Shown here piece after piece: positions 46,823 to 64,000 of a DNA stretch of 64,000 nt. The DNA comes from a virus. Taxonomy: Duplodnaviria; Caudoviricetes. The notes beneath the pieces were generated by a model that ran no database searches, was not told the origin of the DNA, and worked only from the letters and a program-made list of their open reading frames with translations. The stretch covers positions 1,416 through 65,415 of IMG/VR virus record IMGVR_UViG_3300021961_000085, one strand, 5' to 3'. The position numbers and the translations under genes are program-made. Position 1 is the first letter of the stretch, and every line of letters begins with the position of its first letter.

Positions 46823-47032
46823 CTAATCCTCTTCGCCTTCTTCGTACCATTCTGTCATTCTTTCTAAGACTTCCTCGTTGTCTACTATTTGCTGCGCTAT
46901 AGCAAACACTCTTTTAAATCCTGCTAATTCATAAGGGGTGAAGTCATACAGATCTCCATCTTCGATTGCATTTAAGCAATCCATCATTGCTTTGGCCGTA
47001 TTTTCAAAACGGCAATAACTCATATTCATCAT
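46823..47032 (-). CDS. Conserved small phage protein
   Basis: NMSYCRFENT motif. Confidence 0.65.
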   Translation of the reverse strand: MMNMSYCRFENTAKAMMDCLNAIEDGDLYDFTPYELAGFKRVFAIAQQIVDNEEVLERMTEWYEEGEED

Positions 47033-47046
47033 ATTTCTTTTAATTA

Positions 47047-47313
47047 TTAATAAAAACTGTTAACCCAATTTGTAAATTCTGTAGCTGAAGTAATGCCATC
47101 TACATCATCTCCTAAAGGAAAAGGATGTGTTAAGTCTTCGAAGTAAGCTCGACATTCAACAAGATCCCATGTGTAAACTGCTGCAAAACTGTGATCTTCT
47201 TCAAAATCATGTATAGAAATAGAATAATTCTTTTCATTTATTTCTATCTTGTCAAAAGATCTTAACAATTTCATTGCTTCAAGCTTTGTTTTTGTTGCTT
47301 TAATATCTATCAT
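47047..47313 (-). CDS. Hypothetical protein
   Basis: Coupled (TAATG) to the upstream gene. Confidence 0.6.
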   Translation of the reverse strand: MIDIKATKTKLEAMKLLRSFDKIEINEKNYSISIHDFEEDHSFAAVYTWDLVECRAYFEDLTHPFPLGDDVDGITSATEFTNWVNSFY

Positions 47314-47630
47314 TATTTTTTTAAATTTAATATATTAAAAAATTGAACTCCTTTCTCGATTAAACTCTCGGCTCGAGCCAATCGTCTATTACTATCATGT
47401 ATGTAACTGCTCTTGTTAGGTGTTACTCCTAAATCTATCATTGAGAAGTTAAATTCCCACTTACCACCCACGAATCGTTCACCCGTAAATCGCTCAACAG
47501 CATTGTAGCATTCATAAGTCATTTTTAACTTGCATCCACTTGCTTCTATCGTGTCTTGGATGATCACTACATCGTGAGATCTTTCTTGATCATGCAGTTT
47601 ACTTCGATAAAGTTCTTTTATTTTTTTCAT
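47313..47630 (-). CDS. Hypothetical protein
   Basis: Operon packing. Confidence 0.6.
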   Translation of the reverse strand: MKKIKELYRSKLHDQERSHDVVIIQDTIEASGCKLKMTYECYNAVERFTGERFVGGKWEFNFSMIDLGVTPNKSSYIHDSNRRLARAESLIEKGVQFFNILNLKK

Positions 47631-47635
47631 TAGAT

Positions 47636-47827
47636 TTATTTTTTATCGGTTAATTTAATTCTTCTTGTCCTTGGAAATCCTTTTGCCTTTCCCGTTGGAG
47701 TAGCAAACGTTGGTTCTAACGTATAGTAAACATTCCAACCATAAAAATTTACATAAAAAACCTTCGTCTTATTTCCTTTTTTTCTGATGTAATTTTGTGC
47801 CTCTTTAAGTGAATATTCTTTTACCAT
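47636..47827 (-). CDS. Small basic hypothetical protein
   Basis: Coupled to the upstream gene. Confidence 0.55.
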   Translation of the reverse strand: MVKEYSLKEAQNYIRKKGNKTKVFYVNFYGWNVYYTLEPTFATPTGKAKGFPRTRRIKLTDKK

Positions 47828-48276
47828 TATATGTTTTTATATCTTTTTTCTAATCTTACTTGCAATAATTCACTGTGTTGACGTATCATTGTGTCTCTAG
47901 TCCACTTACTAATTGTCATTTTTGGCTTTTGTACGTGGTTTTTAAGTATAAACTTAGCTAAAAACTCTTCACGCTGTTCTTGCAATTTGATGAGAACACG
48001 CTGGTAAGCTTTGTTTATTACTACTTTCTTTTGCAAATGACTCCACTCTGCTGTTTCAACAAGTCTCACTGGATTTATTTGATAGATCTGGCGAGGAGAT
48101 ATTTTCCTCACATAGCCTGTCGCATAAGTTGCAAACATCATTGGTCTTGTCTTACCGCTTGCTAGCACATCACGCTCTGGTAGAGCAAATACTTTAGTGC
48201 CGTTAGCTTTTTGCCTTGCTGTAGTTACTTCTTTCACTCCAAGCAAATCAAGTATTTCTAATGGTTTTAAATTCAT
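47827..48276 (-). CDS. Basic hypothetical protein
   Basis: Start reassigned to ATG 48276, directly after the tRNA-like element. Confidence 0.65.
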   Translation of the reverse strand: MNLKPLEILDLLGVKEVTTARQKANGTKVFALPERDVLASGKTRPMMFATYATGYVRKISPRQIYQINPVRLVETAEWSHLQKKVVINKAYQRVLIKLQEQREEFLAKFILKNHVQKPKMTISKWTRDTMIRQHSELLQVRLEKRYKNI

Positions 48277-48278
48277 AG

Positions 48279-48363
48279 TGGACGTGGCAGGAATCGAACC
48301 TGCGTCTGAGATACTGTCTTGCCGCAATTGGCGAAGATACTGTCTCGCTCACCTTTCACGCCC
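48279..48363 (-). ncRNA. tmRNA tRNA-like-domain (TLD) mimic A, 85 nt
   Basis: Acceptor GGGCGUG/CACGUCC-A with G3.U70; unpaired D-loop AAAGGUGAGC; T-arm GCAGG-UUCGAUU-CCUGC; no anticodon arm. Confidence 0.7.
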
Positions 48364-48370
48364 ATATTAG

Positions 48371-48589
48371 TTATAATGGATATATATCTTCCCACCCATC
48401 TACGGCATTATTATTATAATACCTAGCCTTTTTAGGTTCTACATACTCATCAGGCCAAATTGAATATTGCTCATTTGGAAACATCTCCTCTAAACTACTT
48501 AACAACTCATTAGCTTCCTCTAGTGAAAGTTGAGTTGTATGTTCTTCAGGATAATTTGTTTCATTCATTATCTTATATAATTCTTTCAT
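48371..48589 (-). CDS. Acidic hypothetical protein between the two TLD-like elements
   Basis: Start reassigned to ATG 48589. Confidence 0.65.
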   Translation of the reverse strand: MKELYKIMNETNYPEEHTTQLSLEEANELLSSLEEMFPNEQYSIWPDEYVEPKKARYYNNNAVDGWEDIYPL

Positions 48590-48591
48590 AG

Positions 48592-48694
48592 TGGACGTGG
48601 CAGGAGTCGAACCTGCGTTACAACACACTCGTACGTTTTTCGGTCGAATTACAGCATCACACTCATGCCTGTGTTGTCTGAACCTTTCACGCCC
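48592..48694 (-). ncRNA. tmRNA TLD mimic B, 103 nt
   Basis: Same acceptor stem; D-loop AAAGGUUCAGA; P2-like helix CAACACA/UGUGUUG; UAAC linker; T-arm GCAGG-UUCGACU-CCUGC. Confidence 0.7.
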
Positions 48695-48701
48695 ATGTAG
48701 G

Positions 48702-48914
48702 TTATCTTAGGCAAGTGCCATAACCTTTGCGTTTTGCAGATTTATTTATCTCGTCTGCGAGAGATTTTGGTAAGAATTGTACTTCATTACCTGTTTTATG
48801 GTTTACAATTTGCACTGCGCCATATTTTTCTGTCTTAGAGCAATCTACGCATGTAGTATAACTATACTTTATACGCACAGGGTGGATCGCATTACCGCAT
48901 CTACATATTTTCAT
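48702..48914 (-). CDS. DksA/TraR-type C4 zinc-finger protein
   Basis: CRCGNAIHPVRIKYSYTTCVDCS. Confidence 0.6.
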   Translation of the reverse strand: MKICRCGNAIHPVRIKYSYTTCVDCSKTEKYGAVQIVNHKTGNEVQFLPKSLADEINKSAKRKGYGTCLR

Positions 48915-48923
48915 AATCAAACA

Positions 48924-48953
48924 TATTATCGATCACTATCCGTTTTTCGATTG
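48924..48953 (-). promoter_or_regulatory. Class-1 promoter-like motif
   Basis: CAA-N8-CGG-N8-CGATAATA. Confidence 0.65.
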
Positions 48954-49132
48954 TCATCTATTAATCCATTTTCTATCAAGTCTCTTGCAGTTCTACCGAA
49001 CCACCCTTGTAGTTGATACGCTAATCCAGTATCATGAAGATACTGCCATGCTTCAATGATTTGATCTTCTGACTCGGCCTCTATGAAGCCTTCCGCCAGT
49101 CCTACTGCTGTGTAATTATCCATTTTATTCAT
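48926..49132 (-). CDS. Conserved small phage protein
   Basis: WQYLHDTGLAYQLQGWFGRTARDLIENG. Confidence 0.7.
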   Translation of the reverse strand: MNKMDNYTAVGLAEGFIEAESEDQIIEAWQYLHDTGLAYQLQGWFGRTARDLIENGLIDDNRKTDSDR

Positions 49133-49214
49133 TTTTCTATTTCTTTTGGTACAAAAAAACCATCCTCAACTATGTTTTCTTTTCTTCATTACTAAATTTC
49201 ATAGGTACTCTAGC

Positions 49215-49361
49215 TTATCCATTTGCCGCATGTTGTTTATTCACTGATACGTCAGATCTTCTACCACCGACTGAAGTTAATTTCTTTTTGTACGCTAAGA
49301 AAAGATCATTCTCTTTCAAGATCTCGTCTAATTTCTTTGGATTTCTCTTGTTATTTTTCAT
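49215..49361 (-). CDS. Small basic hypothetical protein (not in track)
   Basis: MKNNKRNPKKLDEILKENDL...HAANG*; ATGA overlap with upstream gene. Confidence 0.5.
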   Translation of the reverse strand: MKNNKRNPKKLDEILKENDLFLAYKKKLTSVGGRRSDVSVNKQHAANG

Positions 49362-49627
49362 CGCTTTGGATTATTAAAACTGTTCCACTTATTGATTAAC
49401 TCTTGATTCCAACCACCTAGCTTGGCAACTTTGTCTTTGATGATCGCTAATTCACGCTCACCCTTTAACCATACTCTGTGATCGTCACTCATTTCGTACC
49501 ACCCGTCATGCTTTTCGAACATTTCTTCGATCGAAAGATCTTCAAAACGATCTTCATACTCGTAAAAGTAAACACTCGCTGCTGGGCACTGTGGCACACG
49601 TCTTCTGTATTTTTTCATGTAACTCAT
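49358..49627 (-). CDS. Hypothetical protein
   Basis: HDGWYEMSDDHRVWLKG; start reassigned to the ATG after the minimal tRNA-like element. Confidence 0.65.
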   Translation of the reverse strand: MSYMKKYRRRVPQCPAASVYFYEYEDRFEDLSIEEMFEKHDGWYEMSDDHRVWLKGERELAIIKDKVAKLGGWNQELINKWNSFNNPKR

Positions 49628-49629
49628 AG

Positions 49630-49676
49630 AACCTTGAGTGAGGATCGCACTCACACACGCAAACTATTGCAAGGTT
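49630..49676 (-). ncRNA. Minimal tRNA-like element C, 47 nt
   Basis: AACCUUG/CAAGGUU 7-bp stem plus GUGAG-UGCGAUC-CUCAC T-arm, then CU-AUG. Confidence 0.55.
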
Positions 49677-49684
49677 GTTATATA

Positions 49685-49714
49685 TATTATCGAGCACTGT
49701 TCGTGCTTCATTTG
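49685..49714 (-). promoter_or_regulatory. Class-1 promoter-like motif
   Basis: CAA-N8-CGA-N8-CGATAATA. Confidence 0.7.
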
Positions 49715-49819
49715 CTAGCTTCCACCAAACACATAGTATATGAAGTTAACAAAGAATAGGATCGCTATTATTGCAATAACTGTTCCGATTGCATCGATTA
49801 TTTCTTCTTTTTTGTTCAT
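49715..49819 (-). CDS. Single-TM micropeptide (not in track)
   Basis: MNKKEEIIDAIGTVIAIIAILFFVNFIYYVFGGS*. Confidence 0.55.
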   Translation of the reverse strand: MNKKEEIIDAIGTVIAIIAILFFVNFIYYVFGGS

Positions 49820-49998
49820 ATTCCGCCTCCTAACGCTATGTCTAACTTGTACACCAACTTAGGCGCTACATTTAATGCTACTATGATAGCGAAACCGATC
49901 GCACCTACAAGTGCTGTTACTGCCGCGCCTGCTAGTGCTTTTACTGTTACACTTGATATTGTAACAATTGCTTTGTGTTGAAATTTTACTTTGTTCAT
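49816..49998 (-). CDS. Small membrane protein
   Basis: One long TM helix; start reassigned to ATG 49998. Confidence 0.6.
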   Translation of the reverse strand: MNKVKFQHKAIVTISSVTVKALAGAAVTALVGAIGFAIIVALNVAPKLVYKLDIALGGGI

Positions 49999-50000
49999 AG

Positions 50001-50042
50001 AAGTCACCGTAAGAATCGAACTTACACTAACCATTGTGACTT
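50001..50042 (-). ncRNA. Minimal tRNA-like element D, 42 nt
   Basis: AAGUCAC/GUGACUU 7-bp stem, loop AAUGGUUAGU, T-arm GUAAG-UUCGAUU-CUUAC, then CU-AUG. Confidence 0.6.
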
Positions 50043-50050
50043 GGTATATA

Positions 50051-50080
50051 TACTATCCAGACACCATCGCAATAGCGTTG
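50051..50080 (-). promoter_or_regulatory. Class-1 promoter-like motif
   Basis: CAA-N8-CGA-N8-GGATAGTA. Confidence 0.6.
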
Positions 50081-50106
50081 TAAAGTATATTGTTTGTTTG
50101 AGTGAT

Positions 50107-50140
50107 CAGAAATGGTGAGAGATGTAGTTCACCACTTCTG
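50107..50140. other. Intergenic hairpin
   Basis: CAGAAATGGTGA...TCACCACTTCTG; no U tract. Confidence 0.45.
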
Positions 50141-50156
50141 TGCAAGAATTTAAATA

Positions 50157-50387
50157 TTATTTCAAATTTTCTTGTAACACTCGTGGAATTGAAGTACTTG
50201 AAGTATAACTTTTGTACTTTTGGAAACACTCCATTGCTTCTAATTTTTCTTTCATTAGAGCAAATGCATCGTCGTGATTGTACTCGAAAGTTTTACCACT
50301 TTTGAAAGTAACTTTGATAATTGCATTTTTACCAACAAGTGATTGACGAATAACGAATCTTTTCATTTCTAATTTTTCTTTTGACAT
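50157..50387 (-). CDS. Hypothetical early protein
   Basis: A-rich leader behind a class-1 motif. Confidence 0.7.
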   Translation of the reverse strand: MSKEKLEMKRFVIRQSLVGKNAIIKVTFKSGKTFEYNHDDAFALMKEKLEAMECFQKYKSYTSSTSIPRVLQENLK

Positions 50388-50425
50388 AACTTTTTTTATA
50401 TTTAATTGTTTAACTTAATTTACTA

Positions 50426-50455
50426 TATTATCGATCGTGCATCGTAATTTATTTG
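50426..50455 (-). promoter_or_regulatory. Class-1 promoter-like motif
   Basis: CAA-N8-CGA-N8-CGATAATA. Confidence 0.7.
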
Positions 50456-50463
50456 TGAGTGAA

Positions 50464-50574
50464 TTACCAAACTTGCAAACAAATGTATATTAACAAGAAT
50501 GGCGAGAGGATCATGGCAAGCACAAGCGCAAGATCGATCAATCTGCTTACTTGTATGTTCTTATTGTTTTTCAT
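50464..50574 (-). CDS. Single-TM micropeptide
   Basis: MKNNKNIQVSRLIDLALVLAMILSPFLLIYICLQVW*; ATG lies 9 nt after a class-1 motif. Confidence 0.5.
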   Translation of the reverse strand: MKNNKNIQVSRLIDLALVLAMILSPFLLIYICLQVW

Positions 50575-50583
50575 ATTCGTATA

Positions 50584-50613
50584 TACTATCGAAAGGATCT
50601 CGTAAAAGTGTTG
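50584..50613 (-). promoter_or_regulatory. Class-1 promoter-like motif, first of the leftward block
   Basis: CAA-N8-CGA-N8-CGATAGTA. Confidence 0.65.
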
Positions 50614-50806
50614 CGCCAAAATGTAAAATGTAAATAGAAAATAACAAATAAGTATTAGTGTTAGTGTAAAAACAAAAAGGTGAAATGTTTTAAAGAAAAT
50701 GGCAAAAATAGGGGCCGGTGGGTTTTTAAAATTGACTTTTAATTTACAAAGCGAAGACGAGAGAGGCGGGGGCAATACCTTACTTCTATATATCTAATCA
50801 CAAATA

Positions 50807-50852
50807 GTGACATTAGCCTTATAAGTTATAATAAGTAAGTACCTATTGTCAC
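50807..50852. repeat. 46-bp imperfect palindromic site, copy 2
   Basis: GTGACATTAGCCTTATAAGTTATAATAAGTAAGTACCTATTGTCAC. Confidence 0.75.
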
Positions 50853-50860
50853 CCTATAAT

Positions 50861-50885
50861 TAAATACACTTTTTTACCTGTAATT
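50861..50885 (+). promoter_or_regulatory. Class-2 promoter-like motif
   Basis: TAAATA-N13-GTAATT at the head of the rightward block. Confidence 0.5.
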
Positions 50886-50887
50886 AT

Positions 50888-52063
50888 ATGGTGGAGATGC
50901 CAAAGATACATACTATAGCAACAGACAATACAATTACTGGTACCGATAAGTTATTAGGATCAGATGGAGCAGTTGGCTCAGCTAACGCTACTAAGAACTA
51001 TACCATGTCTGGTATTAGCAGTTACGTGTTGAGTCAAACAGACACAAACACGTTTAAGACTATAGAAGTAGCTGGGCAGGCAGATATTGTTGCTGACGTG
51101 AATGCAGATACGCTTACTTTGGTGGCGGGTGATTATATCAGTATAGCAACAGACGCATCGACAGACACTATCACTATAACAGGTACTAACACTCCATATA
51201 CAGCAGGTGCTGGTTTGGACCTGACTGGTACTACGTTGTCAGTTGATTCAACGGTGGTTGTTACATCTGGTGCTCAAACAATAGCTGGTGTTAAGACATT
51301 CAGCGACACTATAACTGGTAGCATAGATGGAAATGCAGCTACAGTAACGAACGGAGTTTACACTATAGGTGATCAAACAATTTACGGGGTTAAAACTTTC
51401 GACGATGTTATATCTGGAGATATTGACGGTAATGCTGTTACTGTTACTAATGGTGTTTATACTACGGGGAATCAAACGATAGGAGGCACCAAGACATTTA
51501 GTGATACTATTATTGGTAGTATTGATGGAAACGCTGGAACAGTTACCAATGGTGTATATACCACTGGCAATCAAAGCATATACGGTGTTAAGTCTTTTCC
51601 AGACGGCATAGCTGTACCTGGTTTTGATTTTACGACATCATTTGGCTCTATAAAAGAAGCTAAAGTGATAGTTACTACCGCTAATTTGATTTCATTAAAC
51701 GGTGGTGGAGATTATACGTTAATATCTTCTCCTGGATCAAACAAAATGATCGTACCTATATCTATTATAGCATTCTTGGATTACAATTCTACTACGTACA
51801 ACTTTAGCGAGGATTTGTATATTGGACTAGAGGGACTGGTTGGTTCAAATCCAGAAGAGTATTTTACGAAGATTAGATCACAGCTAGTAAACAGTACTGT
51901 TAATAAATTTGAGTATGCGCCACAGGTATTTGCCACTGATCACATAGAAGTAGGCACTGATACGGCATTAGTGTTGCATGCGACAACTGGAAACAGTGTA
52001 AATACAGGTAATTCTGATTTAGTACTTAATATACTATACAGGGTAGTAGACCTTACAACATAA
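50888..52063 (+). CDS. Fibre / decoration-type structural protein (likely start 50897)
   Basis: Thr/Gly-rich, YTAGAGLDLTGTT motif, tandem 33-aa repeats. Confidence 0.65.
   Translation: MVEMPKIHTIATDNTITGTDKLLGSDGAVGSANATKNYTMSGISSYVLSQTDTNTFKTIEVAGQADIVADVNADTLTLVAGDYISIATDASTDTITITGTNTPYTAGAGLDLTGTTLSVDSTVVVTSGAQTIAGVKTFSDTITGSIDGNAATVTNGVYTIGDQTIYGVKTFDDVISGDIDGNAVTVTNGVYTTGNQTIGGTKTFSDTIIGSIDGNAGTVTNGVYTTGNQSIYGVKSFPDGIAVPGFDFTTSFGSIKEAKVIVTTANLISLNGGGDYTLISSPGSNKMIVPISIIAFLDYNSTTYNFSEDLYIGLEGLVGSNPEEYFTKIRSQLVNSTVNKFEYAPQVFATDHIEVGTDTALVLHATTGNSVNTGNSDLVLNILYRVVDLTT
51275..51598 (+). repeat. Tandem 99-bp (33-aa) coding repeat, about 3.3 copies
   Basis: QTIxGxKTFxDxIxGxIDGNAxTVTNGVYTxG units start at 51275, 51374, 51473, 51572. 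Confidence 0.9.
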
Positions 52064-52437: not shown

Positions 52438-54006
52438 ATGGAATATAATCAACCAAGTCAAATCGTCAAGCATTTAAACTTCGGCGGTGAGGCAAGAGAA
52501 CAAATCATGGCAGGGGTTAATAAATTAACCAATGCAGTAAAATCGACACTTGGCGCTTCAGGTAGATGTGTAATCTACGAAGACGCTTTGGGTAAGCCGG
52601 TGATTACAAAAGATGGTGTAACCGTTGCGGAAAGCGTAGTCTTATATGATCCGGTTGAAAACATAGGTGCAACACTCATCAAAGAGGCTGCAAAAAATAC
52701 AGTGAAGGAAGCAGGTGACGGTACCACCACGGCAACCGTCCTTGCTCAATCACTATTAGAACAAGTAACAAATGCGCAAAACAGTGGAGCAAATGTTAGA
52801 GAAATTAAAAACGGAATCAAAACGGGTCTTGAAAAAGTCAATAAATATCTTGAAGAAAAAACTATCAAGGTTGATGAGGCTATGCTTAGACACGTTGCTG
52901 CTATCAGTTGCAATAACGATAGCGAGCTTGGAGGCATTATATCAGAAGCTTACATCAAAGTAGGATCTGATGGCGTGGTACTAATGGAGGAAAGCGCAAC
53001 TAATGAAACATACGTTGACATTGTTGATGGTGTACAAATAGATTGCGGACTCAAGTCGAACTACTTAATAACTGATAAAGATAGAAATGTAGCTGAACTA
53101 GAGAACCCTTATATACTGATCAGCAAGTCTCCAATACCCAATATACGCAAAATACAAAACATATTAGAGTTTGTTATTAAGAAGAACAGGGCGTTACTTA
53201 TTGTTGGTAACCTAGAGCAACAACCAACTGCAGCATTACTCACAAACAAAGTAAAAGGTAATATTAAAGTGAACTTCATTGATCTTCCTGGTTTTGGTCC
53301 TACCAAAGACGATGCTATTGAAGATCTGGCAATTATCACAGGAGCTAAAGTTATATCAGAGGAACTAGGCGATGACTTTGACTTGATCGACACTAATTGC
53401 TTGGGCGAAGCTAATAAAGTTGTAACTGATAATAAATACACTGTGTTTACAGTAGATAAATCAGGCAAAGACTTAAAAGAGCGCATAAAGCAGGTGAAAG
53501 ATCTTATAGGCAAAGAAGATAAAAATCCTTATCTAAAGAAAAAGCTAGAAGAAAGATTAGCAATACTAGCGGGTAGCGTTGGAGTTGTTCGCGTTGGTGC
53601 TGATTCTAAAATCGAACTTAAAGAAAAGAAAGATAGAGTTGAAGATGCTATATATGCAACTAAAGCCGCACTAAGAGAAGGTATTGTACCTGGCGGAGGC
53701 GTAGCATTAATGAACGCATCGACAGACTTGATCGCAGATAATATTGGAGAAGAATTATTACTAGAAGCAATTAGAAGACCATTTGAGACTATATTATTAA
53801 ACGCTGACATGTCTGCAGAAGATGATCCGTTGGAAGGTCAAGGTATTAATGTAGTGGATGGCTCTGTTGTTAACATGGTAGAAGCTGGAATAATAGATCC
53901 AGTATTAGTAACTAAGGCAGCTTTGAAAAATGCAGCATCTGTAGTTACTACTATTATGTCTGCTGATTGTGTAATCAATAATATGAGGACAAATGAAGGC
54001 AGTTAG
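52438..54006 (+). CDS. groEL: Chaperonin GroEL (Cpn60)
   Basis: [42 protein letters not shown]; no GGM tail. Confidence 0.95.
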
Positions 54007-58478: not shown

Positions 58479-61400
58479 ATGTCAATTAAAATTTACGCAC
58501 CCTTAGAGCTCGCCGATACCTCGGCAGGATTGACAGTTAATGGAGATCTTACAATAGATGGTAGTTCTAGCAATTATTTAAACTTAGATATTTCTGGTGC
58601 GACTAAAGGCTATTTATACTCAACCGCTTCTGAAGTACAATTGTACGGCGGAGGCAGTTATTTAAGGCTTACAGCTAACGACTTTATTAGGTTTGATAAA
58701 AACTCTGCTAATTCGTTCGCTGAAGCAATGAGGTTAGATGGAGAAGGAAGACTAGGTATTGGAACTAGTAGTCCGTATGGAAAGTTACACGTAACATCAA
58801 ACAGTTCTGGAGCTACACCTATAAGCCAACAGCAGTTAATTCTAGAAAACAATACAGCTACTGGAATAGCTATACTAACGCCAAGTACAACATCTGGATA
58901 TTTATTTTTTGGAGATAATAACGATGCTCAAAGAGGGTACATAGCTTATAATCATGCCGCTGATGAGATGAAATTTAAAGTGGCTGGTTCTGAAAGAGTA
59001 TTTATTAATAGTTCCGGCAACGTAGGTATAGGTACAACGAGCCCATCTCAGAAATTATCCGTTAGTGGTAATGTTGAGATAGAAGGTGGTGACTATAATG
59101 GGTTATATTTTACAAACTCTGCTAACACTACAAAAAGTCTTTTATATCAACATGCAAACTATGATGCTCTTGTAATTAAAGACATTGTAAACAATTCCGA
59201 TAGGTTTGTGTTTAAAAACAACGGCAACTTGTTAATTGGCACAACGACTGATAGTGGTTATAAGTTGGATGTTGGCGGTGCGGCTCAAGTAAGTCACACG
59301 TTAAATGAAATCGTTAATTTAAATACCACTCAAGCAAACGGAGGATATACTACATATCGGTCTTCGGGTTCTGCAAAAGGTTATGTAGGGTTTGGTTCTA
59401 CATTATTTACTGGCTTAGATATTAATAACTTTGGTATTAGATCACAAGGTGGATTAGCTCTTGCTAGTGGCGGTGGTAGTACTCGGATGTATATCAACTC
59501 CTCCGGCAACGTAGGCATTGGAACTAGCAGTCCAAATCATAGGGTTGACATTTACTCTAGTGAGAATGTACCGTTAAGAATACACAGACCTAGTAATGCT
59601 AATCTGAATTCATCAGGTGCCTGGGGTATTGGGTTCTCTACAAGAGGTGATGCGAATACAAGCACTACAGACACTAGAGCGGGTATATTTAGTTATTACA
59701 ATGGTAACTTATTTATAGCCACTAGTACGTCAGACGTTGTAGCAGATCCAGATGCATCTGCTAGATTAACAATTCTTAGTGGTGGCAACGTAGGTATAGG
59801 AACGATGAGTCCGGAAACACACTTGCATATACACGGCATCGGCTCATCAGTATCAGGATACCAGTACCACTTAATACTTCGAGATGATAGCGCATACGGT
59901 ATTAATAAAGGATCAGGGTTAGTGTTTAGAGGAAACTACAACTCTTCAGGATCACAAGCTAACTTCGGTGCTATTAGAACCGGCAAAGCAAACGCTAACG
60001 ATGGTAATGCAAATGCTTACTTAGCATTTTTATACGGAGCATCAGGTACCTTAACTGAAGGTATGCGCTTAGATTATAACGGCAACGTAGGTATTGGTAC
60101 TGCTAGTCCTGGTGATAAGCTAACTGTAAATGGTGATATTAGCGTATTTGGAAATAAGATATATAATGGATCAGCATCTAATTCTGCTGGAATAGACTTC
60201 AGTGACTCTCAAGTAGACTTACATGGATATTACGGAATTAGATTTTTTGCTAGCACTGCTGGTATAGGATCTATGACCGAGAGAATGCGTATTGCCAATA
60301 CTGGCAACGTCCTAATCGGTACTACAACCGATAATGGCAGTGAACTGCAAGTTAATGGATATGCAAGATCAAGTAACAGTATTTCTGAAGGTATTGCTTA
60401 TGCTGGTACTGGGTTTGAACATTGGGGAGACGGTGGAACAGGTGTTAACTTTCCAAGCGATGATGTTGTTAGTTTAAAGACAGCCAGCACTGATAGGTTA
60501 TATATAAACTCCTCTGGCAACGTAGGTATAGGTACTGCCGATTTTGGATTAAGCTCTTTTTCTAATTGGAACAACTTAAGATTAGGGAAAACGGCAAATT
60601 TATTTTTTCATACGTCTACAAATACTTTTGGATTTAACATTGGAAGAAACTTTTATTTTGCAAGTGACGCATCTTACAAATATTTGACTAGTGATGAGGC
60701 AGAAACAATAATTTTTTCAGGAGGGAATATAGACTTTAATAACGCTACTTCTGGAACAGAGGATGCTTCATTGACTTGGAACACAAGAATGCGCATTACC
60801 AGTAGTGGCAACGTAGGTATTGGTACGACTAGTCCTACAGCCAAATTGGACGTTAAAGGAGATGGAGCGGATTTCTTTTTACAGTCTAATGATTTTAAAA
60901 TAGCTCGTATTCAACCAAGGGGTACTGGGGCTGATTTAGACAAGGGCCTATTATCACTATTTAACGGCATTACGGAAGACGTAAGAATAGATACATCTGG
61001 TAGTTCTTGGTTTAATGGTGGCAACGTAGGTATAGGTATTACTAACCCATTGGCAAACCTTCACATAAATGGAACTTATTTTCAAAATGCTCCAAATCCA
61101 GGCGTTGGTACAAACATAGTGTCTTCCATAAGACACGGTTCAGATACAAACTATCGTTTAGACTACAAACAAATTGTTACTAGCGGTTTGATAAAGCATT
61201 CATATACCGTTGTTAATGATGGAACTGCATATGCTGATAACCTCGTGTTAGATAGAGGCAACGTAGGTATTGGAGAAACTTCTATTGATGCTCGTCTTCA
61301 TATAACTTCATCAGGTGCCGTAGTGAACCAAAAGTTTGAATCAAATGGTGTAGCTGCTTGGAGATTGGGTATACCAAATGGTCAAACATATTTTGCTTTT

Positions 61401-64000
61401 GATAATACTGCCGATGCTCTTACCTCTCCAAAAGTGGCAATAGCGTCTACTGGCAACGTCCTAATAGGTACTACTACTGACAACGGTTATAAACTACAAG
61501 TCAACGGAGATGCTACTATTAATGGGCATTGGGTTGGCTTAGGTGGAGGAAGTGTAAGTACAAATGTAGTATTAGGTCAATATAACTTAAACAACAACGT
61601 TAGCGGAGGTTCAAACACTGCAATAGGATATTCTGCTTTAAGTTATAATACTGCTTCAAACAATACCGCTGTAGGTAGACAAGCAGCATACAATAATACT
61701 ACCGGATCAATTGTAGCGGTAGGCTATCAGGCTGGGTATGGTAATACTACTGGAGGTAGCAATACATTTATAGGACATCAAGCTTTTCAAAACAATACAA
61801 CCGCATCAGGTAATACTGCACTTGGTCTTCAAGCTGGTAGAAATATAATAGGAAGTAACAATACGGTTTTAGGTGCTGGGGCTGTTTTGGTGGGTAGTGG
61901 TGGTAATAATCTTACGGTTGTCGGTAGGGAGGCATTGTATAACAATACACAAAGTAATAATACTGCTATTGGTTACAAGGCTGCTCGTAGTAATACAAGT
62001 GGATCAATTGTGGCGGTAGGGTACGAGGCTGGGTTTTCAAATACTACTTCTGTAGGTGTTACTGCAATAGGGTATAGTGCATTAAGGAGCAGTACTGGTT
62101 CTGATAATACATCAGTAGGATATGCATCATTGTTTAACAACACCACCGGAATAAGAAACACAGCTGTTGGTAAGGATGCATTAGTAACAAATTCTACTGG
62201 TCAAGACAATGTAGCAATTGGTGAGAGTGCTTTAAGGAACAATACATCTTCATTTAATACGGCTATTGGTCATAATGCTGGTGATGCCAATACAAGTGGT
62301 TCAAACAACATATTTATAGGTAAAGATTCTGACGGAGTAGCAGCAACAGATAGCAATAGGACATTTATAGGTAATGCATCTACTACATCTACTTGGGTGG
62401 GTGGTAATCTATTGGTGGGAACTACTACTGATAGTGGGGATAAGTTAAGAGTCAACGGAACTGTTTTGTTTGAGAATAGCTCTATGGAGCTTAAATTAAC
62501 AGATAACAACTCAACAGGTAATACAGCTAATACCAAGATACTATTTACTGACAATGGAACATTTGGTACTATTGGTACAATAGGATTTAATGGAGATGAT
62601 GATCTTTATATTCAAAACAATCATACTGGAAATGTATTAATTAGCGGAGGCAACGTAGGTATTGGTACTACTAGTCCTGGAGCTAAGTTACAAATATCAA
62701 GCGGAAATAATGTAGATACTCAATTGCTAGTTGGAGAAGGTTCTACTTATGGTGCACCTAGTATCAGGTTTAAAACTGCTAGTACAAATTATATGGGTAT
62801 TGGCTTTACAACTGGTTCTGTTGTAGGCAATGAAGTATTAGATGCAATAGCAATTCAAAGAACAGGCAACGTTGGTATTGGTACTACGAGTCCGACCTCA
62901 AAGACTCATGTATATTATGGCGGTGGTACGACAAATGGATTACACGTTCAAGCAAGTGCCAATAGAGGTAAAATAGCAGTTTCTGATAACGATACTGCTG
63001 CCTATATGATTGCAGAAAATTCTTTAGCATCATTTGGTAGACAAGATGCGTTAAGTGCTAATAACTTAAACATCACCAATGGTGGCAACGTCCTAATTGG
63101 TACTACTACTGACAGTGGTTATAAGCTTTCTGTTAATGGTGCTTCTAATTTCTCAGGTAGTTTAACTATAACTAACGGCTTAATTACGCTATCTGACGGC
63201 TACTCGTTGAGGTTTGGTGGAAACAATAATAGAATATATGGATATAACTCTGGAGATACTTCATTTGTTGTAGGCGGTTCAGAAAGAATCAGAATAAACT
63301 CTTCCTCTGGCAACGTAGGTATTGGTACTACGAGTCCTTCATACCCTTTAGAAGTTCAATCTGGTGGAGTGGGCACTGTACTTAGAGCTGGTACATCATT
63401 CATATCCATAGATCCTACTGGCTCAGCTTCCGCACCTTCTTTAATATTTAATGGAGATAGCAATACTGGAATTTGGCATCCTGCATCCGACACTCTGGCT
63501 ATTATTACGGCTGGCTCTGAGCGCATGCGTATCACTTCAGGTGGCAACGTCCTCATTGGTACTACGACTGATAGTGGTTATAAACTTGATGTTAGCGGTG
63601 CAGCTCAAGTAAGTCACACGTTAAATGAAATCGTTAATTTAAATACCACTCAAGCAAACGGTGGGTATACTGTATATCGGGCTTCAGGTTCTGCAAAAGG
63701 TTTTGTAGGGTTTGGTTCTACATTATTTACTGGTTTAAGTATTAATGACTTTGGTATTAGATCACAAGGTGGATTAGCTCTTGCCAGTGGCGGTGGGAGT
63801 ACTCGGATGTATATAAACTCCTCTGGCAACGTAGGTATTGGGACGACTAGCCCACAAGTTGAGCTTCATGTAAAAGGAAATAATGGTTGGGGAGAAATAA
63901 GAATAGAAGGTCAAACATTTGCTAGTGGACATGGTGGTTCATTAGAGTTTCGTTCTGAAGGAACAGCATTGGCTGATATATATGCTAACACCTCTAAAGA
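58479..64000 (+). CDS. Very long modular tail fibre, more than 1840 aa, 3'-truncated (not in track)
   Basis: ATG 58479 (MSIKIYAPLEL); GNVGIGTTSP / GNVLIGTTTD junctions stay in this frame through 63825; NTAxG solenoid repeats at about 61560-62390. Confidence 0.85.
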   Translation, partial: MSIKIYAPLELADTSAGLTVNGDLTIDGSSSNYLNLDISGATKGYLYSTASEVQLYGGGSYLRLTANDFIRFDKNSANSFAEAMRLDGEGRLGIGTSSPYGKLHVTSNSSGATPISQQQLILENNTATGIAILTPSTTSGYLFFGDNNDAQRGYIAYNHAADEMKFKVAGSERVFINSSGNVGIGTTSPSQKLSVSGNVEIEGGDYNGLYFTNSANTTKSLLYQHANYDALVIKDIVNNSDRFVFKNNGNLLIGTTTDSGYKLDVGGAAQVSHTLNEIVNLNTTQANGGYTTYRSSGSAKGYVGFGSTLFTGLDINNFGIRSQGGLALASGGGSTRMYINSSGNVGIGTSSPNHRVDIYSSENVPLRIHRPSNANLNSSGAWGIGFSTRGDANTSTTDTRAGIFSYYNGNLFIATSTSDVVADPDASARLTILSGGNVGIGTMSPETHLHIHGIGSSVSGYQYHLILRDDSAYGINKGSGLVFRGNYNSSGSQANFGAIRTGKANANDGNANAYLAFLYGASGTLTEGMRLDYNGNVGIGTASPGDKLTVNGDISVFGNKIYNGSASNSAGIDFSDSQVDLHGYYGIRFFASTAGIGSMTERMRIANTGNVLIGTTTDNGSELQVNGYARSSNSISEGIAYAGTGFEHWGDGGTGVNFPSDDVVSLKTASTDRLYINSSGNVGIGTADFGLSSFSNWNNLRLGKTANLFFHTSTNTFGFNIGRNFYFASDASYKYLTSDEAETIIFSGGNIDFNNATSGTEDASLTWNTRMRITSSGNVGIGTTSPTAKLDVKGDGADFFLQSNDFKIARIQPRGTGADLDKGLLSLFNGITEDVRIDTSGSSWFNGGNVGIGITNPLANLHINGTYFQNAPNPGVGTNIVSSIRHGSDTNYRLDYKQIVTSGLIKHSYTVVNDGTAYADNLVLDRGNVGIGETSIDARLHITSSGAVVNQKFESNGVAAWRLGIPNGQTYFAFDNTADALTSPKVAIASTGNVLIGTTTDNGYKLQVNGDATINGHWVGLGGGSVSTNVVLGQYNLNNNVSGGSNTAIGYSALSYNTASNNTAVGRQAAYNNTTGSIVAVGYQAGYGNTTGGSNTFIGHQAFQNNTTASGNTALGLQAGRNIIGSNNTVLGAGAVLVGSGGNNLTVVGREALYNNTQSNNTAIGYKAARSNTSGSIVAVGYEAGFSNTTSVGVTAIGYSALRSSTGSDNTSVGYASLFNNTTGIRNTAVGKDALVTNSTGQDNVAIGESALRNNTSSFNTAIGHNAGDANTSGSNNIFIGKDSDGVAATDSNRTFIGNASTTSTWVGGNLLVGTTTDSGDKLRVNGTVLFENSSMELKLTDNNSTGNTANTKILFTDNGTFGTIGTIGFNGDDDLYIQNNHTGNVLISGGNVGIGTTSPGAKLQISSGNNVDTQLLVGEGSTYGAPSIRFKTASTNYMGIGFTTGSVVGNEVLDAIAIQRTGNVGIGTTSPTSKTHVYYGGGTTNGLHVQASANRGKIAVSDNDTAAYMIAENSLASFGRQDALSANNLNITNGGNVLIGTTTDSGYKLSVNGASNFSGSLTITNGLITLSDGYSLRFGGNNNRIYGYNSGDTSFVVGGSERIRINSSSGNVGIGTTSPSYPLEVQSGGVGTVLRAGTSFISIDPTGSASAPSLIFNGDSNTGIWHPASDTLAIITAGSERMRITSGGNVLIGTTTDSGYKLDVSGAAQVSHTLNEIVNLNTTQANGGYTVYRASGSAKGFVGFGSTLFTGLSINDFGIRSQGGLALASGGGSTRMYINSSGNVGIGTTSPQVELHVKGNNGWGEIRIEGQTFASGHGGSLEFRSEGTALADIYANTSK
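59223..59522 (+). repeat. About 300-bp fibre module duplicated at 63543-63842
   Basis: Long identical runs such as CAAGTAAGTCACACGTTAAATGAAATCGTTAATTTAAATACCACTCAAGCAAACGG; offset 4320 bp. Confidence 0.9.

What the first reader, a model, noticed from the sequence alone, without database searches (positions are those of the whole stretch)
48279..48694. Two tag-less tmRNA tRNA-like-domain mimics, each abutting a start codon
Seen on the minus strand: 48363->48279 and 48694->48592 share the 5' end GGGCGUGAAAGGU and the 3' end ACGCAGGUUCGAYUCCUGCCACGUCCA-CU-AUG-AA, but their interiors are unrelated. Each folds into a 7-bp acceptor stem with G3.U70 and discriminator A, an unpaired GG-containing D-loop, a helix in place of the anticodon arm, a 4-nt linker (AGAC/UAAC) and a canonical T-arm. 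Established: G3.U70 is the AlaRS identity element, and this layout is that of the tmRNA TLD, which binds SmpB. Both RNAs (85 and 103 nt) lack the mRNA-like domain and any ALAA-type tag. Each starts 7 nt after the upstream stop codon. Inference: they are excised mini-tmRNAs acting as SmpB/AlaRS/EF-Tu decoys, tag-free rescue RNAs or decoys for tRNA-cutting defence nucleases; alternatively they are processing signals that leave near-leaderless mRNAs.
Basis: partly seen in the sequence, partly recalled or inferred. Interest (0 to 1): 0.88.

Follow-up and report, generated by a model that had tools for sequence, protein, structure and literature searches.

The report
Tag-less mini-tmRNA genes in a phage
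A marine flavobacterial phage carries two small RNA genes that keep only the tRNA-like end of the ribosome-rescue RNA tmRNA; they belong to a large, unnamed family in related uncultured phages that resembles one form known from a mycobacteriophage.

Summary
On the minus strand, 48694-48592 (103 nt) and 48363-48279 (85 nt) share their ends. Each folds into a 7-bp acceptor stem with G3.U70 and A73, a stemless GG loop, a central helix and a canonical T arm. Each starts 7 nt after a stop codon and is followed by CU-AUG.

They are not tRNAs. Their only Rfam match is tmRNA, below threshold and over the tRNA-like domain (TLD) only. The same ends occur in 69 IMG/VR stretches with mostly unrelated interiors, and the central helix covaries. 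Five of five sampled carrier genomes share only 72-75% TerL identity with this phage. Another set of five complete relatives holds one copy each.

The closest known thing is the 'TLD only' tmRNA of mycobacteriophage DS6A, which my model of this family recognises. Related cultured flavobacterial phages carry full tmRNAs.

My best reading (0.42) is that these are tag-less mini-tmRNA genes, cut out of an early operon like tRNAs and acting through the TLD's partners. Function is inferred; no RNA data exist. The rivals are pure processing signals and a scaffold for RNA modules. Sister subfamilies lack G3.U70. Real phage tRNAs share the CUA trailer. Copy A's interior is a separately conserved 60-nt motif.

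Verdict: a new variant of a known kind.

The parts
48592..48694 (-). Copy A: 103-nt TLD-only tmRNA-like RNA gene. It has acceptor GGGCGUG/CACGUCC with G3.U70 and A73, and T arm GCAGG-UUCGACU-CCUGC.
   Evidence: fold; RF00023 35.7 bits; R1 71.8 bits, E 2e-14.
48619..48678 (-). Interior of copy A, 'module X': a 60-nt three-helix motif with invariant loops GAGUGUG and AAAAC.UAC.
   Evidence: 10 distinct versions, 4 inside TLDs and 6 free-standing. 98.8% of cells are paired, 14 of 17 pairs show compensatory change, and covariation is 0.724 against 0.336 in shuffles (0/500).
48279..48363 (-). Copy B: 85-nt TLD-only tmRNA-like RNA gene with the same ends as copy A. Its interior is 'module Y': two GACAGUAUCU repeats flanking a small hairpin.
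   Evidence: RF00023 33.2 bits, E 2.3e-11; R1 65.4 bits; the same interior type in 4 distinct TLDs, never seen free-standing.
48276..48278 (-). CUA trailer of copy B (positions 74-76). Its A is the first base of the ATG of the 149-aa ORF.
   Evidence: C 76/76, U 69/76 and A 74/76 across the family; homologues begin at the same Met.
48589..48591 (-). CUA trailer of copy A. Its A is the first base of an ATG that opens a 72-aa ORF.
48702..48914 (-). Upstream 70-aa Cys-rich ORF whose stop codon lies 7 nt before copy A.
   Evidence: The same ORF end precedes the element in L022, L057 and L065. In MW202828.1 an 'A2L zinc ribbon' ORF is likewise followed by tRNA-like elements.
48371..48589 (-). 72-aa ORF between the two copies. 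Its stop codon lies 7 nt before copy B. No family match.
47827..48276 (-). 149-aa ORF downstream of copy B. It is conserved, of unknown function, and its start abuts the element.
   Evidence: 10 homologues, Met1 nearly invariant; no family.
50001..50042 (-). Third, minimal tRNA-like element of another subfamily: AAGUCAC/GUGACUU, loop AAUGGUUAGU, T arm GUAAG-UUCGAUU-CUUAC. It has no central helix and no G3.U70, and is followed by CUAUG.
   Evidence: R1 12.4 bits, E 0.85, weak; the same AGUCAC/GUGACU acceptor in L069:4007-4076; architecture scan. The MFE fold prefers another pairing.

Best explanation
The two elements are genes for tag-less mini-tmRNAs. [quoted passage not shown] Everything beyond helix 2 is replaced by a short structured insert.

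Shown: the architecture, its conservation, the covariation, and the kinship to DS6A's TLD-only form.

Inferred: they are transcribed inside the leftward early operon. RNase P cuts before G1 (U at -1). A 3' nuclease cuts at or just after A73, the CUA trailer not being a true CCA, and the host CCA-adding enzyme completes the end. The released RNA is then charged by AlaRS and bound by SmpB and EF-Tu. It competes with, or bypasses, the host's tagging tmRNA, so that stalled ribosomes on phage messages are either not rescued by tagging or receive alanine without a degradation tag. As a side effect, excision cuts the operon transcript and leaves the downstream cistrons with a 2-nt leader.
For: Architecture and Rfam: tmRNA is the only significant family, and only the TLD ends align. 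There is no tRNA or tmRNA call and no hit at gathering threshold. The folds give the TLD layout.

Family: 69 IMG/VR stretches hold the 25-nt 3' block. All 71 matches, the window's two included, have GG[GA]CGTG within 170 nt upstream, at lengths of 47-149 nt. The helix replacing the D and anticodon arms covaries: score 0.231 against 0.069 in shuffles (0/500) and at most 0.081 when slid.

Divergent copies keep the fold by compensatory change. L063:162 has A4:U69 with G3.U70 retained and T stem GGCGG/CCGCC; L024:825 has T stem GCGGG/CCCGC.

Selection: five of five sampled complete carriers share only 72-75% TerL identity with this phage. Yet the element's ends are essentially invariant, while interiors are mostly unrelated (34 of 1711 pairs linked).

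Gene-like copy number: one hit in each of 5 complete relatives, and 1-2 hits in each of three other carrier records, two of them incomplete.

Independence from the downstream gene: of 11 distant homologue loci of the 149-aa ORF, only 1 has a tRNA-like element directly upstream.

Kinship: the loop resembles that of Bacteroidota tmRNA. DS6A's TLD-only RNA scores 43.2 bits on RF00023 and 37.2 bits on my model. It also starts about 10 nt after a stop codon and is followed by CTA. Cultured relatives carry full tmRNAs: phi38:1 at 87.6 bits, ending A-CUA, and Panino a permuted form at 62.2 bits; Calle's tmRNA gene is noted in PMC8776804 (passage).

From the literature: a DS6A-like TLD inhibits tmRNA in E. 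coli (Mao et al. 2009, as cited in PMC4131195 and PMC11915505; I read passages, not the original). G3.U70 plus A73 suffice for AlaRS recognition, and SmpB binds the TLD elbow (PMC3968760, passages).
Against: There is no expression, end-mapping, charging or binding evidence of any kind.

CCA is not encoded (CUA instead), and the phage has no CCA-adding enzyme or SmpB of its own.

Seventy-one of the 77 family members counted (76 model hits in the loci, one of them a duplicate terminal-repeat copy, plus the window's two) were collected with a pattern that fixes U70 and A73, so their conservation there is partly by design. G3 lay outside that pattern and is G in 70 of 71. Among the 7 copies found only by the model, G3.U70 is present in 4 and G3.U70 with A73 in 3. 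Sister subfamilies have G3:C70 with U73, or U3:A70. Minimal forms lack helix 2 altogether (L045:7474; window 50042-50001). What is universal is therefore only the acceptor/T-arm 'top half' plus the CUA trailer, which is what RNase P and 3' nucleases need, not what AlaRS needs.

Real phage tRNAs in the same loci carry the same CUA trailer and AU-rich leader. Adjacency to start codons is thus generic to tRNA-type genes in these phages.

The conserved interior modules suggest that the insert, not the TLD, may carry the function.
Confidence: 0.42

Rival explanations
1. Cis-acting tRNA-like punctuation signals. The elements exist to be cut by RNase P and a 3' nuclease, as in the mitochondrial tRNA punctuation model. 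Cutting splits the early polycistronic RNA and gives the downstream genes defined, very short 5' leaders. The excised RNA is a by-product.
For: U at -1 in 51 of 76, with no G at -1 to -3. C74 in 76 of 76, U75 in 69 and A76 in 74.

An ATG-ORF of at least 35 codons starts 2-25 nt downstream in 47 of 77 hits (not de-duplicated), 10 of them at +2. An upstream stop codon lies within -1 to 9 nt in 19 of 77.

Bona fide phage tRNA-Met, -Gln and -Thr genes have the same CUA plus AU-rich leader, in two cases CUAUG or CUAUAUG. The full tmRNA of phi38:1 is also followed by CUA and an ORF about 23 nt on.

Subfamilies without G3.U70 and minimal top-half forms exist.

Other genes of this phage have A-rich unstructured leaders. 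A stable stem 2 nt before the AUG would block initiation unless it is removed.

No terminator-like site lies on the minus strand in 47000-51000.
Against: Five of five complete relatives have only one copy each, far too few for a general punctuation system. Ten of 11 distant homologues of the downstream ORF use an ordinary leader. Near-invariance of unpaired nucleotides and of G3.U70, across phages whose TerL is only 72-75% identical to this phage's, exceeds what structure-reading nucleases need. Some copies sit in tRNA arrays with no ORF after them (L063: two tandem copies, then tRNA-Met).
Confidence: 0.3
2. A tRNA-type scaffold for small RNA modules. The TLD supplies processing and stability, as engineered tRNA scaffolds do. 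The variable insert (module X in copy A, module Y in copy B) is the active part, for instance a protein-binding or regulatory RNA.
For: Module X is a conserved three-helix motif with invariant loops. It occurs free-standing in 6 of 10 versions and inside a TLD in 4. Module Y recurs in 4 TLDs, and its central hairpin differs in sequence among them while it can still pair, by eye and not counted. The 59 interiors fall into 34 sequence types on one constant frame.
Against: Minimal copies carry no insert at all (L013 47 nt, L045:7474 40 nt). This reading does not explain the retained G3.U70 and A73. No function is known for any module, and Rfam gives no match.
Confidence: 0.17
3. A decoy or sponge for host defence or toxin enzymes that act on tRNA acceptor ends or elbows, rather than for SmpB.
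For: The location is early in the operon and the tRNA top half is faithfully mimicked. This rests on inference only.
Against: There is no anticodon loop, so anticodon nucleases are excluded. No defence-related neighbour was found. The tmRNA-specific loop similarity is left unexplained.
Confidence: 0.06
4. A non-functional remnant: a degenerate tRNA gene, an attP core copied from a host tRNA or tmRNA gene, or a chance fold.
For: Phages often carry attP cores identical to tRNA or tmRNA 3' ends (general knowledge; PMC11590407 passage).
Against: Both halves are present. Zero matches are expected by chance. Covariation is present. The 25-mer occurs in only 6 stretches among 185,579 species' genomes, all of them MAG contigs and none matching the tmRNA genes found in those MAGs. 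The phage has no tyrosine integrase.
Confidence: 0.02

Closest known systems
'TLD only' tmRNA of Mycobacterium phage DS6A (tmRNA Website; PMC4131195 and PMC11915505, passages read)
   Same: It is phage-borne and 83 nt long. It has a 7-bp acceptor stem with G3.U70 and A73, a stemless GG loop, a short closed helix 2 and a canonical T arm, with no tag frame. It starts about 10 nt after the stop codon of the upstream gene and is followed by CTA, not CCA. My family model aligns to it end to end (37.2 bits). It scores below threshold on RF00023 as ours do (43.2 against 33-36 bits).
   Different: The host phylum differs (Actinomycetota, a temperate siphovirus) and the sequence is unrelated outside the generic TLD positions. 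DS6A is a single reported case. Here there are more than 70 instances, two copies in one genome, 34 interchangeable insert types, sister subfamilies without alanine identity, and a start codon 2 nt after the discriminator.
Full-length and permuted tmRNA genes of cultured flavobacterial phages (Cellulophaga phage phi38:1/Calle, Maribacter phage Panino)
   Same: They belong to the same wider phage group: TerL is 38-42% identical. The loop motif is the same and the trailer A-CUA is the same in phi38:1. They are also embedded among small ORFs, with an ORF starting about 23 nt downstream.
   Different: They are about 360 nt long and reach the Rfam threshold (87.6 and 62.2 bits). ARAGORN proposes a tag frame for them. 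Ours have 53- and 71-nt interiors and no tag.
CDS-less tmRNAs of organelles (jakobid mitochondria; Mallomonadaceae plastids, about 65 bp; PMC11915505 passage)
   Same: They are reduced to the tRNA-like domain with no tag reading frame.
   Different: They are organellar, single-copy and vertically inherited, with no variable structured insert. I did not examine their sequences.
tRNA punctuation and tRNA-like processing elements (mitochondrial mRNAs, plant mitochondrial t-elements, mascRNA): recalled, not tested here
   Same: A tRNA-shaped structure sits between cistrons, and its excision would define mRNA ends and leave near-leaderless messages.
   Different: Those systems use many elements per genome. 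Here there are one or two. The sequence-level conservation and alanine identity go beyond a processing signal.

Membership tests
tmRNA (ssrA; Rfam RF00023) | Acceptor stem formed by the 5' and 3' ends, a T arm, and a reduced D loop without a stem | tested here: met
   Folds; alignment to the model's TLD ends. Feature list taken from PMC3968760 (passages).
tmRNA (ssrA; Rfam RF00023) | G3.U70 wobble pair and A73 (alanine identity) | tested here: met
   Both window copies. In the family G3 is present in 70 of 71 pattern-collected copies. It is not met in sister subfamilies.
tmRNA (ssrA; Rfam RF00023) | mRNA-like domain with a resume codon and a tag frame ending in a stop codon | tested here: not met
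   ARAGORN finds no tmRNA. The interiors are 53 and 71 nt. The only mini-frame (5 codons, copy A) lies in a covarying stem.
tmRNA (ssrA; Rfam RF00023) | Pseudoknot ring (PK1-PK4) | tested here: not met
   More than 290 model positions are deleted in the alignments.
tmRNA (ssrA; Rfam RF00023) | Score at or above the curated gathering threshold (47 bits) | tested here: not met
   33.2 and 35.7 bits.
tmRNA (ssrA; Rfam RF00023) | 3'-terminal CCA, alanylation, and SmpB and EF-Tu binding | not testable with these tools
   The gene encodes CUA after A73. Whether CCA is added and whether the RNA is charged or bound needs experiment.
TLD-only tmRNA variant (phage DS6A type) | [quoted passage not shown] | tested here: met
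   the same layout, and reciprocal recognition by model R1 (37.2 bits, E 8.5e-8).
TLD-only tmRNA variant (phage DS6A type) | Inhibits endogenous tmRNA when expressed | not testable with these tools
   Reported for a DS6A-like molecule in E. coli (Mao et al. 2009, as cited in PMC4131195; the original was not read).
tRNA (Rfam RF00005) | D stem, and an anticodon stem-loop with a 7-nt loop | tested here: not met
   No ARAGORN call. There is no tRNA hit at the gathering score; at a loose E-value cut-off tmRNA was the best-scoring family of its clan, and 5 lower-scoring overlapping clan matches were not listed. The folds show neither arm.
tRNA-like RNase P / 3'-nuclease processing element | Coaxial acceptor/T-arm top half with a T-loop/GG-loop elbow, and a suitable -1 and trailer context | tested here: met
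   U(-1) in 51 of 76 and C74 in 76 of 76.
tRNA-like RNase P / 3'-nuclease processing element | Actual cleavage at G1 and after N73 | not testable with these tools
   No run listed for this stretch is on record as RNA.

The most novel reading that the evidence does not exclude
A clade of marine flavobacterial phages has turned the tmRNA tRNA-like domain into a modular RNA chassis. One invariant, alanine-chargeable TLD frame carries any of dozens of interchangeable structured RNA modules, some of which also exist free-standing. It is cut from early operons by the host's tRNA-processing enzymes. That cut does two things. It releases a tag-less rescue or decoy RNA that subverts SmpB-dependent trans-translation. 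It also punctuates the phage message into near-leaderless mRNAs, a bacterial-virus counterpart of mitochondrial tRNA punctuation.
Probability: 0.2. Interest if true: 0.85.

Novelty: new variant of a known kind. Interest (0 to 1): 0.64.

Why it matters
Phage-borne tmRNAs are known but unexplained. The only tag-less phage form in print is a single case, DS6A.

A family of more than 70 natural TLD-only RNAs, under strong sequence constraint and carrying swappable inserts, would give a comparative handle on three questions. What does a tag-less TLD do during infection: inhibit tagging, rescue without tagging, or merely process RNA? Which TLD positions matter for SmpB and AlaRS recognition in Bacteroidota? 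And how do phages of hosts that lack Shine-Dalgarno initiation organise the 5' ends of their mRNAs?

The family also flags a systematic annotation gap. ARAGORN and Rfam thresholds miss these genes. The full tmRNA of phi38:1 is unannotated and is overlaid by hypothetical CDSs in GenBank.

Tried and rejected
- **RNA evidence.** The look-up of sequencing runs on window 47000-50200 listed 24 holders, none on record as RNA. No RNA holder was listed.
- **Cultured phages.** blastn of copy B against 50,697 phage records gave only 29-32-nt T-arm and acceptor matches to unrelated tRNAs and tmRNAs, with 0 of 140 records covering at least 80% of the query. The 1.4-kb region gave no match at E 1e-5. Model R1 on 5 cultured relatives gave only hits of 25.7 bits or less; those I inspected were mostly real tRNAs. 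An elemovirus had none.
- **Relatives of the downstream ORF.** The search for related loci with the single 149-aa protein found no relatives. It succeeded with an alignment.
- **Known families near the elements.** Rfam at the gathering threshold on 18 related loci found only 5 tRNAs and nothing for the conserved upstream motifs. Those upstream motifs are absent from the window.
- **Neighbouring ORFs.** PHROGs and Pfam gave only one domain of unknown function.
- **Phage-encoded partners.** No SmpB, CCA-adding enzyme or integrase in the phage.
- **Promoters and terminators.** The sigma-70 promoter scan was no better than chance and does not model Bacteroidota promoters.
- **Permuted tmRNA.** Rfam's 'permuted tmRNA' hit joining copy A's 3' half to copy B's 5' half (16.8 bits, E 0.57) is an artefact of two tandem copies.
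- **Mini-frame as a tag.** I considered the mini-frame in module X as a tag. I rejected it because its residue changes track stem covariation and because the module also occurs outside TLDs.
- **Prior description.** Literature searches found no description of this family. Supplementary tables of PMC11915505, which list viral tmRNA entries, could not be seen and might contain members.
Full report
**1. The observation**

Read on the minus strand, 48694-48592 and 48363-48279 begin with the same 13 nt (GGGCGTGAAAGGT). They end with the same ACGCAGGTTCGAYTCCTGCCACGTCCA, followed by CT-ATG-AA. The 25-nt 3' block occurs twice in the window, against none in 100 shuffles.

Each has a 7-bp acceptor stem with G3.U70, ten unpaired bases with GG, a central helix domain, a 3-4-nt linker, a 5-bp T stem with loop UUCGAYU, and discriminator A. 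Each element begins 7 nt after a stop codon, and an ATG begins 2 nt after each element.

ARAGORN finds no tRNA or tmRNA in the window. No Rfam family reaches its threshold. At a loose threshold the only significant family is tmRNA: 33.2 bits for copy B and 35.7 bits for copy A in the whole-record search, against a gathering score of 47. Only the two ends of the model are aligned and about 300 positions are deleted.

**2. The genome**

The window is nearly all of a 65,415-bp IMG/VR virus record that CheckV rates complete. Its terminase is 64% identical to that of an uncultured podovirus. It is 46.5% identical to Flavobacterium elemoviruses, 42% to Maribacter phage Panino, 38-39% to Cellulophaga phages and 32% to a Tenacibaculum phage.

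Genes have A-rich leaders without Shine-Dalgarno motifs, as expected for a Bacteroidota host (an inference). The elements lie in the first 2 kb of a leftward block of small ORFs that runs on into replication genes. No terminator-like site lies on that strand nearby.

**3. A family, not a pair**

The 25-nt block occurs in 69 IMG/VR stretches. Every one of the 71 matches, the window's included, has GG[GA]CGTG within 170 nt upstream. That gives elements of 47-149 nt and 64 distinct sequences. In their alignment the first 17 and last 28 nt are nearly invariant, and the middle is not.

I imposed the 3' half through the search pattern. I did not impose the 5' half, which is GGGCGTG in 63 of 64 distinct sequences (one has A3). 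The helix that stands where the D and anticodon arms would be covaries strongly. Its score is 0.231 against 0.069 in shuffles (0 of 500), and at most 0.081 when the partners are slid.

A covariance model of the family (R1) scores the window copies at 71.8 and 65.4 bits. It finds 76 hits in the 69 loci. Seven of these were not found by the pattern, and they show compensatory change in the other helices: A4:U69 with G3.U70 kept, and T stems GGCGG/CCGCC and GCGGG/CCCGC.

Five of five sampled complete carrier genomes have a terminase only 72-75% identical to the window's. Interiors are mostly unrelated: 59 interiors fall into 34 clusters, and 34 of 1711 pairs are linked. Downstream flanks are similar in 169 of 1830 pairs. 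The near-identity of the element's ends therefore reflects constraint, not recent common descent.

The element is phage-specific. Among 185,579 species' genomes the block occurs in 6 stretches, all MAG contigs. The true tmRNA genes of two of those MAGs have different stems.

**4. What it resembles**

The stemless loop (AAAUGGUUAGAC in most members) resembles ACCGGUUUUGAC and ACUGGUUUUGAC of the two Bacteroidota tmRNAs. It also resembles CUGGUUUUGAC of the full tmRNA I found in Cellulophaga phage phi38:1. That RNA scores 87.6 bits on RF00023, is not annotated in the record, and ends A-CUA. Maribacter phage Panino has a permuted tmRNA at 62.2 bits. The tmRNA genes of Calle and Panino are mentioned in PMC8776804 and PMC11590407 (passages read).

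The closest published thing is the 'TLD only' tmRNA of mycobacteriophage DS6A (PMC4131195 and PMC11915505, passages). I located it at JN698994.1 28478-28560, where it scores 43.2 bits on RF00023. It is 83 nt long and has the same layout. It begins about 10 nt after the stop codon of gp33 and is followed by CTA. Model R1, built only from the flavobacterial family, aligns to it end to end at 37.2 bits, E 8.5e-8. The same model gives real tRNAs of related phages at most about 26 bits.

The window's elements are thus members of the 'tag-less TLD' kind. They fail the tests for full tmRNA (no tag frame, no pseudoknots, below threshold) and for tRNA (no D stem, no anticodon arm).

**5. Context rules**

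Across 76 distinct element-plus-flank sequences, the base before G1 is U in 51 and never G. The three bases after the discriminator are C (76 of 76), U (69) and A (74).

An ATG-ORF of at least 35 codons starts 2-25 nt downstream in 47 of 77 hits (not de-duplicated). Ten are at +2 (CUAUG) and most of the rest lie behind CUAAAUUAAAUU-type leaders. A stop codon lies within 9 nt upstream in 19 of 77.

The real tRNA genes of these same loci (Met, Gln, Thr) have the same trailer and leader. tRNAs of the Bacteroidota MAGs, by contrast, encode CCA. So 'N73-CUA, then leader, then AUG' is a property of tRNA-type genes in this phage clade and is not special to the TLDs.

The 149-aa ORF after copy B is real. 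Ten homologues all start at the same Met. In 11 distant homologue loci, however, only one has a tRNA-like element directly upstream; the rest have ordinary leaders.

Copy number is one in each of five complete relatives, and one or two hits in each of three other carrier records, two of them incomplete. The window's two copies are the exception. In some loci the TLDs sit in tRNA arrays, two in tandem before tRNA-Met in L063.

**6. What is not uniform**

Sister subfamilies share the loop, the T loop and the CUA trailer but have other acceptor stems. One is AGGCGUG/CACGCCU with G3:C70 and U73. Another is AGUCAC/GUGACU with U3:A70. Some members have no central helix at all (47 and 40 nt).

The window itself holds such a minimal element at 50042-50001. 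It is again followed by CUAUG, the start of a 60-aa ORF. It is weak on its own: 12.4 bits, and the MFE fold prefers another pairing.

Among the seven copies found only by the model, G3.U70 is present in four, and G3.U70 together with A73 in three.

**7. The interiors are not filler**

Copy A's interior is a 60-nt three-helix motif ('module X'). I found ten distinct versions, four inside TLDs and six free-standing. In them 98.8% of cells are paired and 14 of 17 pairs show compensatory change. Covariation is 0.724 against 0.336 in shuffles (0 of 500). The loops GAGUGUG and AAAAC.UAC are invariant.

Copy B's interior ('module Y') recurs in four TLDs. It has two GACAGUAUCU repeats around a small hairpin whose sequence differs among them while it can still pair (judged by eye, no pair count was run). 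Rfam knows neither module.

**8. Mechanism**

Shown: the fold, the family, the constraint, the kinship to DS6A, and the context rules.

Inferred: the elements are co-transcribed with the early ORFs. RNase P cuts before G1, and U at -1 suits it. The 3' end is made at or just after A73. CUA keeps C74 and A76 but is not CCA, which would otherwise block RNase Z-type cleavage (recalled enzymology, not tested). CCA is then added by the host, since the phage has no such enzyme.

With G3.U70 and A73 the RNA should be a substrate of AlaRS. With a tmRNA-type elbow it should be a ligand of SmpB; the criteria are from PMC3968760 (passages). A TLD of this kind inhibited tmRNA in E. coli (Mao et al. 2009, as cited; the original was not read).

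I therefore rank 'tag-less mini-tmRNA acting on the trans-translation machinery' first (0.42). The reasons are the one-per-genome distribution, the nucleotide-level constraint and the independence from the downstream gene.

'Pure processing signal' comes second (0.30). The universal features are exactly the tRNA top half plus trailer, and real tRNAs sit in the same position.

'Scaffold for RNA modules' comes third (0.17).

The three are not exclusive. Excision would in any case split the message and leave 2-nt leaders on the two downstream cistrons. With a stable stem 2 nt before the AUG, that seems necessary for their translation in a host that needs open, A-rich leaders (an inference).

**9. 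Novelty and limits**

Tag-less TLDs in phages are known from DS6A. tmRNAs in flavobacterial phages are also known. What is new:
- the size and constraint of this family;
- the interchangeable inserts, one of which is an independent motif;
- the sister subfamilies without alanine identity;
- the shared CUA trailer, present also in DS6A and in phi38:1's tmRNA;
- the tight packing between cistrons.

My literature searches found no description of the family.

No RNA data exist for this phage (see Tried and rejected), and no cultured phage in the collection has the mini form. Every functional statement above is therefore inference.

Noticed in passing
window 50001-50042 (-): A minimal tRNA-like element: 7-bp stem AAGUCAC/GUGACUU, loop AAUGGUUAGU, T arm GUAAG-UUCGAUU-CUUAC, no central helix and no G3.U70. 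It is followed by CUAUG, the start of a 60-aa ORF. The same acceptor sequence occurs in L069:4007-4076.
   Followed up: partly
window 48619-48678 (-); also L076:1438-1497, L035:574-633 (-), L038:6521-6580 (-), L045:7517-7576 (-), L060:677-736 (-), L134:1902-1961: 'Module X', a 60-nt three-helix RNA motif with invariant loops. It occurs both inside TLDs and free-standing, covaries strongly and is not in Rfam. Its second-helix loop could pair with 4 nt of the third-helix loop to form a pseudoknot (untested). It contains a 5-7-codon frame ending in UAA whose residues change with the stems.
   Followed up: partly
KC821614.1 (Cellulophaga phage phi38:1), about 26806-27165, minus strand (L111:1498-1859): A full-length tmRNA (RF00023 87.6 bits) that the GenBank record does not annotate. 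Hypothetical CDSs gp041 and gp042 overlap it. It ends A-CUA, and the next ORF (gp040) starts about 23 nt downstream.
   Followed up: partly
L010, L011, L016, L032, L035, L038, L056, L060: the roughly 70 nt upstream of the TLD: A conserved cloverleaf-like motif. An outer helix (UCCCUUAC/GUAAGGGA type) encloses three small hairpins and ends in GGUUGAAAACAAG, directly 5' of the TLD. It has no Rfam match and is absent from the window.
   Followed up: partly
L027, L045, L051, L052, L067, L069, L014, L030 and others: 60-150 nt upstream of the TLD: A second conserved non-coding block (GGCGGCAUACUGGUCACGUUAG ... AAAACAGAAAGAGCGGAUAAAUGACAAUACUAGUUAACUACCAGUCC ... CUGCUGCC) whose ends can pair. Many relatives appear to carry a variable array of RNA modules in this region.
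   Followed up: no
L004, L005, L009, L013-L015, L026, L027, L029, L031, L036, L038, L042, L044, L058, L062, L063 (tRNA genes found): The phage tRNA-Met and tRNA-Gln genes listed here are followed by C-U-A after the discriminator and then an AU-rich leader. The tRNA-Thr of L024 has CAA instead. tRNAs of Bacteroidota MAGs encode CCA. DS6A's TLD-only RNA and phi38:1's tmRNA also have CUA. The reason for U75 is unexplained.
   Followed up: partly
MW202828.1 532-690 (L074): In the nearest named relative, two tandem tRNA-like structures follow an 'A2L zinc ribbon' ORF. One has a D arm but a long helix in place of the anticodon arm. ARAGORN does not call them. Their position matches that of copy A, which follows a Cys-rich 70-aa ORF.
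   Followed up: partly
NC_062747.1 73061-73129; PP540027.1 4942-5031: More anticodon-less tRNA-like elements in cultured Tenacibaculum phage Gundel_1 and Maribacter phage Panino. They are not called by ARAGORN and score 19-26 bits on R1.
   Followed up: no
L007:499-582: A GC-rich contig holds a member with the same acceptor stem and T arm but with a D arm and a stem that ARAGORN reads as tRNA-Arg(CCG). It may be a tRNA-like intermediate form.
   Followed up: no
window 19425-27533 (+), 58479-63998 (+), 52438-54006 (+): Two giant ORFs (2702 aa, and more than 1840 aa running off the window) have no Pfam match. The phage also encodes a GroEL-type chaperonin (phrog_5725, E 5.7e-134).
   Followed up: no
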